From contig CAXWPH010000015.1 in the NCBI GenBank assembly GCA_963666055.2, forward strand, positions 1,088,001 through 1,152,000: a DNA stretch of 64,000 nucleotides, in the 5' to 3' direction. Of the stretch, positions 28,414 through 55,024 are shown one piece after another. The notes under the pieces are model-generated. The model searched no databases. It was not told where the DNA came from and saw nothing but the letters and a program-made list of their open reading frames with translations. Every line of letters begins with the position of its first letter. Position 1 is the first letter of the stretch. Source of the stretch: Acidobacteriota bacterium (lineage in GTDB: Bacteria > Acidobacteriota > UBA890 > WLXD01). The position numbers and the translations under genes are program-made.

Positions 28414-29436
28414 CTACTCCTCAGCATGCACGATCGTGTCAGGCCGGTACTTCTCCCACGCGAACCAGAGGGAGTAGGTCGAGATTATCGGCTGCAGATG
28501 CGCTCCCTGAAGCGCTCCGGAAACCGCCTCGCCGGTGATCGGATTCCACTTTGAGCCGGTTTGGTGATCCCGAAGCCGATCGTCGGAGTCGAGGCTGAAG
28601 CTCAACTCCTGGTCGTTAAGGGTTCGCAGGTAGATACGCGCCGTAGATAGGTCCGGCGCCAAGTACACGACGATCGGCGCGTTCTCGAAGACGTCCTCGA
28701 GCAAGCGCTTGCTAGCCAGCCGCCGCACCAGATAAGCGCGCGCTTCGACGTGACCCTCGAGGCCGACGATCAGGTCCTCCGAACGGATCGGCCCCGGCGG
28801 TTGGTTGGCGATCTCGTCGAAGGTCTCCCGGGTGAACCGCGCTCGATAAGGGACCGCAGGCTTCACATAGACCGTGGTCTCGGGATGCATCTCCCGCCAT
28901 TGACGCCAGGTCGTCATCATCGACGCACGCTTTTCGAGCGCTGTTCCTTCCAGCTCGCCGCTGACCGCCTTGCCAAACAGCTGGCTCCAGTGTGAGCGGG
29001 TCTGTGCGTCGTACATGATGAGCGTGCCCTCGTCGACGCCGACGACGCCGAATTGCAGCTCCCGGCCATCAAACTCGCGGGCGTACACGACGCCGCTGTG
29101 ATCGATCGGTCACCAGCTCGGCGCGATGAGCTCTCCACCGAGCTCGTCGTTGACGACCTCGTTGTTCGGCCCGTTCATGTAGTTGACTGGGTAGGCGCGT
29201 GCCTGGCCGTTGATCACCACACCCATGACGATGTCGTCGTCACCAATTTCGGCCTCGGACGCGGCGACGATCTCCGGATCGACGTTCAGCGGAAAGCCCT
29301 CCTCGCTGAGCATGGTGAAGTCGGACCGGTCGCGATTCGTCGGGCCGCGGCCCTGGGGCGCCTCGCCAAACGCCTGGAGCGGCAGCAGCGTCGCGCTGAC
29401 AACCACGAGCGCCAGTAACTTACTCAGTCCGTGCAC
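28414..29436 (-). CDS. DUF3179-like exported protein, probable selenoprotein (UGA at 29112-29110)
   Basis: ORFs 29110-29436 and 28414-29088 are in one frame separated by a single TGA (APSW-U-PIDHSGVVY) at the family's Cys position; hairpin follows. Confidence 0.8.
29077..29096 (-). promoter_or_regulatory. Putative bacterial SECIS hairpin
   Basis: GC-GGCGU-[CGUGU]-ACGCC-C-GC begins 13 nt after the UGA; GU in the apical loop. Confidence 0.55.
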
Positions 29437-29519
29437 GCTGCTCTCCTCTCGGTGAAGCTTCGTTGAAACCGTCGAACTTCACCGTACCATCAGCGGCGGA
29501 CGCCCCGGGTGTGTCGGCG

Positions 29520-43736: not shown

Positions 43737-46170
43737 TCAGTTCCGCATGCGGGCGCCCGCCGGGTCGAAGAGCGGCTCCTTCAGGAGCGTGGCGTTCCTG
43801 CGAATGCCGAGGATCTCGATCTCCAAGCTCTCGCCGACGTCGGCCAGCTCGGATGGCACGTAGCCGAGGGCGACCGACTGCTGCGACCAATGGGCGTAGC
43901 CGCCCGAGGTGACCCAGCCCACCACCTCGTCGTCGTGCCAGATCGGTTCGTCGCCGATCACGTCGGCATCGACGGCGTCGACCGCGAACGTGACCAGCCG
44001 TCGCTTCGGGCCCGAGTCTCGCTCGGCAACGGCCGCGTCGCGCCCGACGAACTCGCCCTTGTCGGGTTTGACGAACACACCGAAGCCGGCCTCGTATGGT
44101 CCGTAGGTCGGGCGGTACTCACGGGCCCATGATCCGAAGCCCTTGTCGAGGCGCAGAGAATCGAGGGCGCGAAGCCCGAAGAGCCGCAGCCCATGGGGCT
44201 CGCCGGCCGCCCGGAGGGTACAGAACAACGTTCGTAGGTACTCGGGCCTGACCCAGATCTCGTAGCCCAGGTCTCCCGTGAAGGTGATGCGGCCGACCAT
44301 GGCCGGGATCATGGCGACGTCCAACCGACGGAAGTCGAGGAAACCGAAGGCCTCGGCCGACACGTCGGTTGACGCTAGATCCTGCAACACGGCCCGCGAC
44401 GCCGGGCCGGCGATCGAGAGTCCGACGAGGCCGACCCCCTCGGCTCGGAGCTGCACGCTGTCGTCGTCGGGGAGGTGCCGGGCGAACCACCGCATGTGGT
44501 ACTGCTCGGCGATGCCCGACCCGAACACGTAGTACGAGTCGGCATCGAGCGCCGCCACAGTGAAATCGCCGATCAGCCGTCCTTGCTCGTTCAGCATGGG
44601 GCTCAGCACCATGCGCCCTGGCGGCGGGATCCGGTTGGTGAGCAGCCCCGACAGCCATCGGCTGGCGCCCGGGCCGGTGACCGCGTACTTGGCGAAATTC
44701 GAGATCTCGGTCAGCCCCACCTGTTCGCGGACAGCTCGGCTCTCCTCGCCCACCGCGTCGAACGCATTCGAGCGCTTGAACGTGATCTCTTCGACCGGGT
44801 CGAGGCCGGGACGCTGAAACCAGAGCGGATATTCCAGGCCGAAGGCCGCGCCCCACACCGCGTTGGCCGCGGTCTGCTCGTCGTAGATGGCCGTGGTCTG
44901 GAGCGGCCGGCCGGCCGGGAGCTCCTCGTTGGGGAAGGCGATCTTGAATCGGCGCGAGTAGAACTCTCGCACCTTGGCGTCGGTGTAGGCCGGCGTGGCC
45001 CAATTGCCGAACCGGGTCGAGTCCATGCCCCAAACGTCCATGCCTGGGTCGCCATCAGTCATCCACCCCGCCAGTGCCAAGCCGACTCCGCCGCCCTGGC
45101 TGAATCCGGCCATCACGCCGCACGCCAACCAGTAGTTGGGGAGATCGCGGACAGGCCCGACGAGTGGGTTGCCGTCGGGGGTGAATGTGAACGGGCCGTT
45201 GATGATCTGCTTGATCGGGGCGTCGGCGAAGGCGGGGAAGTGGGCGAAGCCGACCTTGAGCGAGTCGGTGATTCGATCGAGGTCGGGTGGAAGCAGCTCA
45301 GTGTCGAAGTCCCAGGGCGTGTCCGCGTGGTGCCCACGGCCTGCCGCCCTGCTCGTAGGTGCCGATCAACATGCCCTCACCCTCCTGGCGCAGATACAGC
45401 TCACCGCCGAAATCGAGCGCTCCGACGAGCTCACGGCCGTCGTTGGCCGAGTTGTACGCCACGACCTCGGGCAGCGCATCGGTCACCAGGTACTGATGTT
45501 CCATCGCCAGCACCGGCAGCTCGAGACCGACCATGCGCCCCACTTCGCGCGCCCACAGGCCGGCGGCGTTGACGACGTGCTCGGCGTGGATGACTCCGGC
45601 CTCGGTCACGACGTCCCACGTCGAGTCCGTGCACTGCACCAGATCGGTGACCATGGTGTGAAGGTGGACCTCGGCGCCCGCCTTCTGCGCCGCCCCGGCG
45701 TAGGCTTTGGGAACTCCCACGGTGTCGACGTGGCCCTCGAGCGGGTCGTAGACCGCGCCGACGAAGTACGACGGGTCCATCATGGGGAACAAACTCTCGG
45801 CTTCCGCCATCGAGATGATCTCGGTCTCCATCCCCAGGTACCGGCCGCGTCCGTGGACCATCTTCAGCCAGTCGAGTCGCTCTTCGCTGTCGGCCAGAAT
45901 CACGCCACCGGTGAGGTGCAGGCCGCAGTCCTGGCCCGAGACCTCCTCGATCTCGCGATACAGCTCGATCGTGTATTTCTGCAGGCTGGCGACGTTGGGG
46001 TCGCCGTTCAGGGTGTGGAACGCCCCGGCGGCGTGCCAGGTCGACCCAGAGGTCAGCTCCCGCCGTTCGAGCAGGACGACATCGGTCCATCCCGCCTTGG
46101 TGAGGTGGTACAGCACGCTGCACCCGACCACGCCACCGCCGATCACCACCACCTGGGCGGTGTCCTTCAT
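43737..46170 (-). pseudogene. GcvT-family dimethylglycine/sarcosine dehydrogenase, one frameshift near 45325
   Basis: VIGGGVVG, TSGSTWHAAG; after GRPWAPRG the homologous sequence TPWDFDTELL...FTPDGNP continues in the frame of ORF 43737-45128. Confidence 0.85.
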
Positions 46171-51681: not shown

Positions 51682-52150
51682 ATAGCATCCATGATCTGGG
51701 CGGGATGACGATCTGGGCGGGATGACCTGTTTTGGCCCGGTCGCGCGGGAGCACGGCGAGCCGGTCTTTTGCGCCGAGTGGGGAAGACGTGTCTTCGCGA
51801 TGAATCTCGCCGCCGGCGGGCCCGGGCCGATCGACGCGGCGCGCCACGCCAGTGAGCGAATGGACCCATTGCTCTATCTCACCGTCTCGTACTACGAACG
51901 GTGGCTGGCCGGCATGGAGGCGCGAGCCAAGGAGGTAGGCGTGCTCTCCGAGGAGGAGATCGCCAGCGGCGTCTCCACGACGAAACCGCCCGCTGGGGAT
52001 CCACCCCCGAACGCAGAGATCATCGAGGCGATCGTGCGCGGCGGAATGGCATCCAGCCCGCAACATCGGGTGGCTCCAACCACGATTCGACGTCGGCGAT
52101 CGGACCCCTGGGAGGACTACCTGGATCCGGTAGCGACGGGTGTCGAATGA
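51678..52150 (+). pseudogene. nthB: Degenerate second nitrile hydratase beta subunit
   Basis: MNSIHDLGGM start broken by a 17-bp duplication (51693-51726); [13 protein letters not shown]; C-terminal domain largely deleted before WEDYLDP. Confidence 0.85.
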
Positions 52151-52374
52151 GTGACGATCCCCAGCATGACCATGATCACGATCACGACCACCCCCACGAC
52201 CACCCCCACGACCACCCCCACAGTGCTCCGCCGAACCCGTATCTAGAGCCGCGGCGAACCGCCGACGAGACCGCCGCCCTCGAGCAGCGTGCGCAAGCGA
52301 TCGAAGCGTTGCTGATCGACAAGGGCCTGGTGTCGAAAGACGTACCTGAGCGACCTCGTCCCGGTCGTCAGTGA
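52147..52374 (+). pseudogene. nthA: Truncated second nitrile hydratase alpha subunit (His-rich N-terminus only)
   Basis: ATGA overlap with nthB; HDHDHDHDHPHDHPHDHPH; RAQAIEALLIDKGLV; no CxLCSC motif. Confidence 0.8.
52183..52218 (+). repeat. 12-bp tandem repeat x3 (CACGACCACCCC, encoding HDHP)
   Basis: Read directly from the sequence. Confidence 0.85.
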
Positions 52375-54058: not shown

Positions 54059-54166
54059 TTCAGTTACTGGTCTCAAACACACGCGGGGAGACGCAAGTTC
54101 TCCCGAGAAGCGCTCGCATCATTGATGCCGCCGCTTCATCGCTAAGAAACCGATCGGAGCGATGCA

Positions 54167-55024
54167 TTGCCCATGCCCATTCCCGTTCGCGAGCGCGACT
54201 ACGCTCATCCGGAGCTGCTGGCCGAGACCGATTGGCTCGCCAGTCGTCTGTCCGATCCGACGGTTCGTGTTGTCGATGCTCGTTCTGACGAAGACTACGC
54301 CGGCGACCATATTCCCGGTGCTGTTCACATCAACGGCTTCACGCTTGGCGGGATACGCCCTGAATCCGAGATGCCAGAGCCCGAGGCCTTCGCTCACCTG
54401 GTCGGGGCGCTTGGAATCGACGAGCGCACACCGGTCGTCGTCTACGACGCGGGGGGGCGGTCGCAATTGTCCCAGTTGGCGGGGATGACCGCCTGGACGT
54501 TCCTTTACTACGGCCATCCCGATGTTCGTTACCTCGATGGTGGGTTGACGAAGTGGACCGCCGAGGGGCGGCCGCTTTCCAGCGACCCCCCGGCCCACGA
54601 ACCGCGGAGGTTCGCAGCGCGCCCGGTAGAGGGCGTCTACTGCTCCCTGAACCAGGCGAAAGCCTCCATCGATGACGCCGGCGTCGTCTTCTGGGACGTG
54701 CGCAGTCTCGGCGAGTTCGAGGGGACGACGAAAGGGTGGAATGCTCCGCCCCGGCTCGGGCACCTGCCGGGCGCTGTCCATTTGGACTACCGCGAGCTGT
54801 TCGATGCCGACAACGGGACGTTGAAGCCTGCCGCCGAGCTCAGCACGCTTCTGGGGGACAAAGGGATTACACCGGAGGCCGCGGTCACTACCTACTGAGG
54901 GGGTGGTGCGCGCGCGGGTCTCGCAGCGCTCGTCCTGAAGATCCTCGGTTATGGCCGGGCATCGAACTACGCTGGATCCTTCAACGAATGGGCCAATCAG
55001 CCCGACACCGATGTGGATCGCTGA
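54167..55024 (+). CDS. Tandem-domain rhodanese/sulfurtransferase, probable selenoprotein (UGA 54896-54898)
   Basis: HIPGAV, LDGG..KW, GHLPGA; TTY-U-GGGARA at the catalytic Cys position; reading through gives LGY..NYAGSFNEW and a stop at 55024. Confidence 0.88.
54910..54929 (+). promoter_or_regulatory. Putative bacterial SECIS hairpin
   Basis: GCGC-GCG-[GGUCU]-CGC-A-GCGC; loop G and U fall at nt 23 and 24 counted from the U of UGA, as in E. coli fdhF. Confidence 0.75.

What the first reader, a model, noticed from the sequence alone, without database searches (positions are those of the whole stretch)
54167..55024. Selenocysteine rhodanese with an fdhF-like SECIS
Seen: the ORF stops at TTY-TGA exactly at the active-site position and the frame continues GGGARAGLAALVLKILGY..NYAGSFNEW, the rhodanese C-terminal signature. 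The downstream hairpin has a GGUCU loop with G and U at positions 23 and 24. Established: E. coli fdhF SECIS has GGUCU with G23/U24 read by SelB, and Sec rhodaneses have been predicted before. Inference: a Sec sulfur- or seleno-transferase with the unusual loop U-GGGAR. It is the second Sec gene in 64 kb, which hints at a large selenoproteome.
Basis: partly seen in the sequence, partly recalled or inferred. Interest (0 to 1): 0.75.

Follow-up and report, generated by a model that had tools for sequence, protein, structure and literature searches.

The report
Selenocysteine rhodanese of a known family
The apparent stop codon in this sulfur-transfer enzyme gene sits exactly on the catalytic site and is very likely read as selenocysteine; this makes it a real but ordinary member of a selenoprotein family predicted from ocean DNA in 2005 and still listed only as predicted.

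Summary
Confirmed. The TGA at 54896-54898 falls on the catalytic Cys of two-domain rhodaneses, and the frame runs 41 more residues to complete the fold. The genome has selA, selB, selD and tRNA-Sec. TGA stands at this site in 47 of 50 related loci; 106 of 120 database homologues are cut exactly there and 13 have Cys. The loop GGUCU matches E. coli fdhF at positions 22-26, and its synonymous U24 never varies (41 of 41 loci). The fdhF U17 is missing, so an E. coli reporter could fail falsely.

The family is known: 'rhodanese-related sulfurtransferase' (Sargasso 2005; 'form 4, UxxG' in a 2026 review), with Sec at the same site, listed as predicted only. The loop U-GGGAR is not unusual: it fits CxxGxR. 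This gene marks a separate branch, about 40% identical to Sargasso-type copies, found in several phyla. The hint of a large selenoproteome holds: at least 21 candidate genes.

Likely function: sulfane-sulfur transfer through a selenylsulfide; the substrate is untested. The scan reported Sec rhodaneses before in other genomes. It also reported before my side finding, an uncatalogued Sec form of CstB-type persulfide dioxygenase.

The parts
54167..55024 (+). Gene for a two-domain rhodanese (TTG start 54167, or the homologous ATG 54173; true stop TGA 55022-55024); 285 or 283 aa with Sec
   Evidence: homology in sequencing-run contigs breaks off at 54172 and 55026
54227..54565 (+). N-terminal rhodanese domain, residues 21-133; it contains no Cys
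   Evidence: Pfam PF00581; sequence
54641..54643 (+). Cys159, the only Cys of the protein; invariant in the branch; role unknown, probably structural (inferred)
   Evidence: Cys in 119 of 119 aligned proteins and 41 of 41 loci that cover it; Ala at this column in 1uar and 1e0c
54647..54997 (+). C-terminal catalytic rhodanese domain, spanning the internal TGA
   Evidence: PF00581 match with one TGA inside; model has strand 239-243, loop, helix 248-259
54896..54898 (+). In-frame TGA at the catalytic position, very likely Sec244
   Evidence: TGA in 47 of 50 loci; Cys in 13 of 120 homologues
54910..54929 (+). Predicted SECIS upper stem-loop (positions 15-34); apical loop GGUCU at 54917-54921, with G23 and U24
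54899..55021 (+). 41-residue tail after the TGA: loop GGGAR, active-site helix, C-terminal signature YAGSFNEW
   Evidence: same length and conserved in 46 of 47 TGA loci
54090..54172 (+). 5' leader shared by about half of the related loci; CGCTTC (54132-54137) can pair with the ribosome-binding site GGAGCG (54156-54161); function not shown
   Evidence: no covariation support

Best explanation
The gene encodes a two-domain rhodanese with an in-frame UGA at its catalytic position, very likely decoded as selenocysteine, and the enzyme is predicted to move sulfane sulfur between persulfide-type donors and thiol-type acceptors in the cytoplasm. Step 1, shown by sequence and conservation: the UGA, the 41-residue tail, the GGUCU hairpin 11 bases downstream and a complete sel set are present. 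Step 2, inferred (about 0.96): SelB binds the G23/U24 loop and delivers Sec-tRNA, giving a 283-285 aa protein. Step 3, inferred from established rhodanese chemistry: the Sec244 selenolate at the start of the U-G-G-G-A-R loop takes an outer sulfur from a donor, forms an enzyme selenylsulfide (E-Se-S-), and passes the sulfur to a thiol, thioredoxin, sulfite or cyanide. Step 4, inferred and weakest: the role is general handling of reactive sulfur, not one biosynthetic pathway, and the donor is more likely an organic persulfide or polysulfide than thiosulfate or 3-mercaptopyruvate.
For: Catalytic-site alignment and fold; AlphaFold pLDDT 90.8; TM 0.85-0.87 to 1e0c, 1uar and 3aax. sel genes above curated cut-offs, and SelB has its winged-helix domains. 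TGA in 47 of 50 loci. 106 of 120 homologues end just before the site, 13 have Cys, 1 is otherwise broken. Of the 10 other whole genomes known to hold the TGA form, 9 have selA, 9 have selB, and each has at least one. Synonymous sites track the hairpin: U24 in 41 of 41 loci; paired third positions 15, 21, 27 and 33 have entropy 0-0.17; unpaired 18 and 30 have 1.08 and 1.36; only 10 of 135 other four-fold sites are at or below 0.2. 21 of 22 Sec candidates of the genome have GU in or closing the apical loop, against 281 of 3000 Cys controls. The loop lacks the Arg-Lys that PMC9369223 ties to thiosulfate binding. Invariant Glu183 stands where relatives with CGSGV[S/T]A loops have Arg. No conserved gene neighbours argues against a dedicated pathway.
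Against: No experiment, no protein evidence and no expression evidence. The hairpin has no energetic or covariation signal. The loci are related and not independent. Two of the 50 loci (L067, L080) are frameshifted near the site. For the 106 truncated proteins I saw no DNA, so TGA is shown only for the loci. No NCBIfam model passes its cut-off: the best is MPST at 101.9 bits against 250. The substrate therefore rests on the loop and on the absence of context.
Confidence: 0.62

Rival explanations
1. A selenoprotein, but one that carries selenium (as a selenylselenide) towards SelD or a reduction pathway rather than sulfur.
For: Rhodanese binds selenium 1:1 as a perselenide in vitro (PMC9369223, passage). 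Weak match to ExtH of selenite/tellurite reduction operons. The host is a heavy selenium user.
Against: The ExtH score is 45.9 against a cut-off of 200. The Pfam scan of 27 neighbouring genes showed no selenium-pathway gene. Only 2 of 41 genomes (G000 and 40 relatives) carry this branch, while all 13 relatives tested have selA, so it is not part of the core supply.
Confidence: 0.11
2. A selenoprotein that donates sulfur to one specific metabolite or cofactor, as EanB (ergothioneine) or YnjE-type rhodaneses do.
For: EanB and YnjE are among the sequence and fold matches. The branch keeps an invariant Trp-rich C-terminal domain, which may form a specific pocket.
Against: The EanB and YnjE chains are 416-460 aa and rank below two-domain rhodaneses. 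No partner gene recurs among 47 loci.
Confidence: 0.13
3. A Sec/Cys redox enzyme in which Cys159 resolves a Sec244 intermediate as a selenenylsulfide, so that it works as a thiol oxidoreductase or persulfide reductase.
For: Cys159 is invariant (119 of 119) and is also Cys in both Sargasso-type paralogues. Most Sec enzymes are redox enzymes (PMC13188914).
Against: Cys159 lies in a short strand before helix 161-167 and aligns with Ala in 1e0c and 1uar, which suggests a packing residue. I could not measure the distance because no coordinates were available.
Confidence: 0.1
4. The TGA is a real stop, a sequencing error or another recoding, and the gene is truncated or dead.
For: The hairpin is not more stable than chance. 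Gene callers end the protein here.
Against: The same TGA stands in 47 of 50 loci, from at least four phyla by their record titles. The tail keeps its length and sequence. TGA also serves as this gene's own stop. The aligned residue is Cys. The sel genes co-occur.
Confidence: 0.03

Closest known systems
[quoted passage not shown] It is not the separate GOS entry named 'Sulfurtransferase COG2897', whose Sec context differs.
   Same: Two rhodanese domains; Sec at the same column after T-Y; UxxG motif; Arg at +5; a tail of about 41 residues. One GOS sequence shares 11 of 12 residues of the WDVRSxGEFEGT stretch and another has Cys at the Cys159 column (supplements, compared by eye).
   Different: The loop is U-GGGAR, not U-QGGIR or U-QAGVR. 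Tool-fetched U-QGGIR copies are only 39-41% identical, sit in another clade and occur as paralogues in 2 genomes that also carry this form.
Cys two-domain rhodaneses with solved structures: Thermus thermophilus 1uar, Azotobacter vinelandii 1e0c, Mycobacterium 3aax, 3hwi and 3hzu
   Same: Fold (TM 0.85-0.87), 29-34% identity, catalytic position, a six-residue loop ending in Arg.
   Different: Sec instead of Cys; Gly-rich loop instead of CRIAER or CQTHHR.
Mitochondrial TST and MPST / E. coli SseA
   Same: Fold and probable double-displacement chemistry (established knowledge).
   Different: Neither the CRKGVT loop of TST nor the Gly/Ser-substituted MPST-like loop; Glu183 where MPST-type relatives have Arg; NCBIfam MPST model below cut-off.
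E. coli fdhF SECIS
   Same: GGUCU at positions 22-26, G23 and U24, same distance from the UGA.
   Different: No U17; the unpaired bases are at 18 and 30-31; the stem sequence is unrelated.

Membership tests
Bacterial selenoprotein | In-frame UGA aligned with a conserved Cys of homologues | tested here: met
Bacterial selenoprotein | Reading frame conserved beyond the UGA | tested here: met
   41-residue tail in 46 of 47 TGA loci
Bacterial selenoprotein | SECIS hairpin with apical-loop G just downstream | tested here: met
   Met by conservation; energy and covariation gave no support
Bacterial selenoprotein | selA, selB, selC and selD in the genome | tested here: met
Bacterial selenoprotein | Selenium shown in the protein | not testable with these tools
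   needs 75Se labelling or mass spectrometry
Rhodanese-related sulfurtransferase selenoproteins (Sargasso; form 4) | Tandem PF00581 domains with Sec at the C-terminal catalytic site, motif UxxG | tested here: met
Rhodanese-related sulfurtransferase selenoproteins (Sargasso; form 4) | Same clade as the founding U-Q[GA]G[IV]R sequences | tested here: inconclusive
   Separate clades (SH-aLRT 98 and 95) in a quick tree whose deep branches are weak. The founding sequences were compared by eye only. The reviews' representative accessions could not be fetched and their supplements were not available.
TST (thiosulfate:cyanide sulfurtransferase) | CRKGVT loop with basic residues at +1 and +2 | tested here: not met
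   loop is UGGGAR
MPST / SseA (NF008557) | Score above the curated cut-off, and a CGSGV[S/T]A-type loop | tested here: not met
   101.9 bits against 250; alignment
ExtH (NF040901) and TsoB (NF045694) | Score above the curated cut-off | tested here: not met
   45.9 against 200, and 21.6 against 805
E. coli fdhF-type SECIS | G23 and U24 in the apical loop | tested here: met
E. coli fdhF-type SECIS | Bulged U17 | tested here: not met
   G17, paired with C32 in 26 of 26 aligned sequences
Rhodanese superfamily enzymes | Sulfur transfer activity | not testable with these tools
   needs an enzyme assay

The most novel reading that the evidence does not exclude
The U-GGGAR branch is its own, horizontally spread class of selenium-dependent sulfurtransferases that databases hold only as truncated proteins. 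In this host it works with a Sec single-domain rhodanese and an uncatalogued Sec CstB-type persulfide dioxygenase as a selenium-based network for reactive sulfur: three of the four rhodanese-domain genes found in the genome carry an in-frame UGA. Natural Cys revertants at 75-79% identity would make the Sec-versus-Cys question directly testable in a rhodanese.
Probability: 0.3. Interest if true: 0.55.

Novelty: new member of a known kind. Interest (0 to 1): 0.25.

Why it matters
Sec rhodaneses have been predicted since 2005 and are still listed as predicted in a 2026 review. A selenylsulfide intermediate in a sulfurtransferase would be a clean case for asking what selenium adds over sulfur. This branch supplies matched natural Sec and Cys forms (P0005 at 79% and P0006 at 75% identity). 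It also corrects annotation: 106 of the 120 best homologues are on record without their active site. As a discovery it is modest: the family, the Sec position and the UxxG motif are in print, and the scan has reported Sec rhodaneses in other genomes.

Tried and rejected
Hairpin stability against shuffles gave no signal; covariation gave none.

Gene neighbourhood: no conserved partner among 47 loci.

Idea that the Sec form displaces Cys SseA-type enzymes, suggested by G000 and G002 against G003 and G004: rejected, since 8 of 10 other hosts keep further Cys-type paralogues.

ARAGORN's tRNA-Pyl at C5:65608-65685: rejected. It is a canonical cloverleaf that can be read with a TCT anticodon, and no PylSn was found.

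Two tRNA-Sec genes: they lie in an 8-kb, 99.9% identical overlap of two contig ends, so probably one gene.

Rfam and the promoter/terminator scan gave nothing above chance.

Sequencing runs: no RNA holder listed, which says nothing about expression. The laid contigs are mostly relatives, and only 40 of 275 difference rows were shown, so they do not test the TGA base itself.

Ten of the 30 genome candidates scanned were not counted as selenoproteins: 5 had no Pfam hit, and 5 looked like two adjacent genes or a nonsense stop.

The careful tree did not finish; only quick trees were used, and no clade test was run. The Cys159-Sec244 distance could not be measured.

Paper searches that found no experimental study of a Sec rhodanese, judged from listings. 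Most subscription journals are outside the library.

Full report
Observation. The + strand frame from 54167 reads as a two-domain rhodanese that stops at TTY-TGA (54896-54898) and continues in frame for 41 residues to a second TGA at 55022-55024. Pfam finds two rhodanese domains, the second spanning the TGA. In alignments to 1uar, 1e0c and 8k55 the TGA falls on the catalytic Cys. An AlphaFold model of the read-through protein (Cys in place of Sec; mean pLDDT 90.8) puts it between strand 239-243 and helix 248-259 and matches solved rhodaneses at TM 0.85-0.87. Contigs from four sequencing runs lose similarity at 54172 and 55026, that is at the ATG and at the second stop; no loose end at the internal TGA was among the rows shown (91 rows not shown).

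Is the TGA selenocysteine? The genome (95.7% complete) has selA, selB with its winged-helix domains, selD and tRNA-Sec, each above its curated cut-off. Of the 120 best protein homologues, 106 end exactly before the catalytic column (one is the window's own protein), 13 have Cys there and 1 is otherwise broken. At the DNA level 47 of 50 loci have TGA at that column. Of the other three, one is frameshifted, one is a distant Cys enzyme and one does not cover the site. 46 of the 47 keep a 41-residue tail (the 47 include the window's own locus and reduce to 42 distinct sequences). Among the 10 other whole genomes known to carry the TGA form, 9 have selA, 9 have selB, and every one has at least one of them. 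An error or a dead gene is therefore very unlikely.

The SECIS. Against the E. coli K-12 fdhF gene, positions 22-26 are identical (GGUCU), but position 17 is G, not U. A review names U17, G23 and U24 as the fixed bases and says that loss of U17 or G23 abolishes read-through in E. coli (PMC8659212, passages). The hairpin is not unusually stable and has one compensatory change, no more than shuffles give. Its support is selection on synonymous sites. In 41 distinct frame-intact loci the third base of Gly251 (U24) never varies, the only Gly codon of 25 with zero entropy. The four paired third positions have entropy 0-0.17, the two unpaired ones 1.08 and 1.36, and only 10 of 135 other four-fold sites are that low. 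The loci are kin, so this is not a formal probability. The same GU-loop hairpin follows the TGA in 21 of 22 Sec candidates of this genome, against 281 of 3000 Cys codons (candidates were picked by coding score, protein motif and family hit, but I had seen their folds).

Family. The Sargasso paper lists three Sec 'rhodanese-related sulfurtransferases' (COG2897); the two I saw in its supplement have Sec after T-Y in the loops UQAGVR and UQGGIR (PMC1088965, passages and supplement search). The GOS paper lists eight, with two-domain examples (PMC2398784, passages and supplement search). PMC1976440 reports rhodanese-type Sec genes in a worm symbiont (passages). The 2022 review and the 2026 review both list the family as predicted, the latter as 'form 4, UxxG' (PMC9312934, passages; PMC13188914, passages and section 7 parts 1-2 with all of Table 1; their supplements were not available). 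The window's gene fits that definition. It is, however, a distinct branch. Two genomes carry both this form and a U-QGGIR paralogue at 39-41% identity. A quick tree separates the U-GGGAR clade (support 98) from the clade holding the U-QGGIR copies (support 95), with weak branches between them. A Cys clade, mostly CNGGAR and about 58% identical, is its near relative, and two Cys proteins nest deep inside it, which suggests reversion from Sec (quick trees, no clade test). 27 of 150 cluster representatives, most of them 29-53% identical, also end just before the site, so recoding there is probably widespread; their DNA was not seen. The loop is ordinary: 77 of 123 loops read from those representatives are CxxGxR.

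Spread and context. Named genomes with this branch are labelled Chloroflexota, Myxococcota, Acidobacteriota and Gemmatimonadota, at 71-86% identity, and they mix on the tree. Only 2 of 41 genomes (G000 and 40 relatives) carry it. Horizontal spread is the simplest reading; donors were not tested, and binning errors may contribute. Neighbours differ from locus to locus; in the window they are a fatty-acid hydroxylase and an NHL-repeat protein.

Mechanism. By established rhodanese chemistry the catalytic residue accepts a sulfane sulfur and hands it on; with Sec the intermediate would be a selenylsulfide. The loop lacks the Arg-Lys pair that sets thiosulfate preference in TST (PMC9369223, passages), and Glu183 replaces the Arg seen in MPST-type relatives. 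Neither classical substrate is therefore favoured, and I commit to persulfide or polysulfide donors at moderate odds. I saw no signal peptide by eye, so the enzyme is likely cytoplasmic. Selenium carriage, a dedicated biosynthetic role, and a redox cycle through the invariant Cys159 remain open.

Selenoproteome. A coding-score scan gave 115 in-frame TGA candidates. I scanned 30 of them against Pfam and NCBIfam, and 20 fall inside thiol-redox or known Sec families: four DUF3179, six Prx/TlpA-like, two DsrE copies, FdnG, AhpD, PrdB, deiodinase-like, OsmC, ArsM, a single-domain rhodanese and an MBL-rhodanese fusion. With this gene that is at least 21, which is large but below the 39, 57 and 63 on record. 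Three of the four rhodanese-domain genes found have an in-frame TGA.

Side finding. The MBL-rhodanese fusion (G000:C7:331676) has TGA where 3r2u has the Cys of GHGAGSPCG. That motif matches the residue list given for the C201 loop of CstB (PMC12934615, abstract and passages). TGA and one conserved hairpin recur in 11 of 41 genomes; 13 more distant loci have Cys, and 1 does not cover the site. 119 of the 120 best short homologues end at that site (the search was limited to short proteins). No such family is in the 2026 table, and searches showed none in their listings.

Verdict. The finding is real and correctly read, and it is a new member, on a separate branch, of a family predicted twenty years ago. 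The scan has reported Sec rhodaneses in other genomes. Interest 0.25.

Noticed in passing
G000:C7:331031-332521 (+), TGA at 331676; L099, L121-L131: CstB-type persulfide dioxygenase-rhodanese fusion with in-frame TGA at the C201-equivalent loop Cys and a conserved GGU-loop hairpin; TGA in 11 of 41 genomes; not in the 119-family table of PMC13188914. More novel than the finding itself, but already noted by this scan (e1-9820421).
   Followed up: partly
window 28417-29478 (-), TGA at 29110-29112: DUF3179 selenoprotein candidate, the other Sec gene of the window; one of four DUF3179 genes with in-frame TGA in the genome.
   Followed up: partly
G000, 20 places listed: At least 21 selenoprotein gene candidates in one genome, nearly all with a short hairpin bearing GU in the loop; the ArsM candidate has a GGA loop instead. 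85 of the 115 candidates were not scanned.
   Followed up: partly
G000:C5:31814-32488 (-), L102: Single-domain rhodanese with U-NGGGR, resembling the GOS 'Sulfurtransferase COG0607' Sec sequences; it appears to have a lipoprotein-like N-terminus (by eye).
   Followed up: partly
G000:C14:448759-449055 (+), L106: Short frame with GGG-U-AVDNLFW and a good GGUC-loop hairpin but no Pfam or NCBIfam hit; MerB-like by recall only; possible further selenoprotein.
   Followed up: no
window 54090-54172: Leader shared by about half of the related loci across phyla; predicted pairing of CGCTTC with the ribosome-binding site. The site was at least 80% paired in 14 of 28 loci against 17% of 379 control genes, but the loci are kin and there is no covariation.
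   Followed up: partly
L146 (G047:C12), L147 (G049:C1): Second Sec rhodanese paralogue (U-QGGIR, Sargasso type) in genomes that also carry the U-GGGAR form; each has its own G-loop hairpin.
   Followed up: partly
P0005, P0006: Cys forms (CGGGARGGL) nested inside the Sec clade: probable Sec-to-Cys reversions, useful as natural controls.
   Followed up: partly
G000:C13:58156-66188 and C6:1-8030: 8-kb, 99.9% identical overlap that holds the tRNA-Sec gene; probably one locus assembled twice. The DsrE gene also appears twice (C14, C15).
   Followed up: partly
G000:C5:65608-65685 (-): ARAGORN tRNA-Pyl call; looks like a misfolded canonical tRNA with a TCT anticodon; no PylSn found.
   Followed up: yes
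G000:C2:114268-115182 (+), L009: selD lies in a 758-codon open frame, so it is probably fused to another domain; it has no internal TGA.
   Followed up: no
window 45298-46170 (-) and 51722-52374 (+): A GcvT-like amine oxidoreductase frame that seems to end early (by eye), and nitrile hydratase beta-like pieces (Pfam PF21006 for 51722-52150); possible frameshifts.
   Followed up: no
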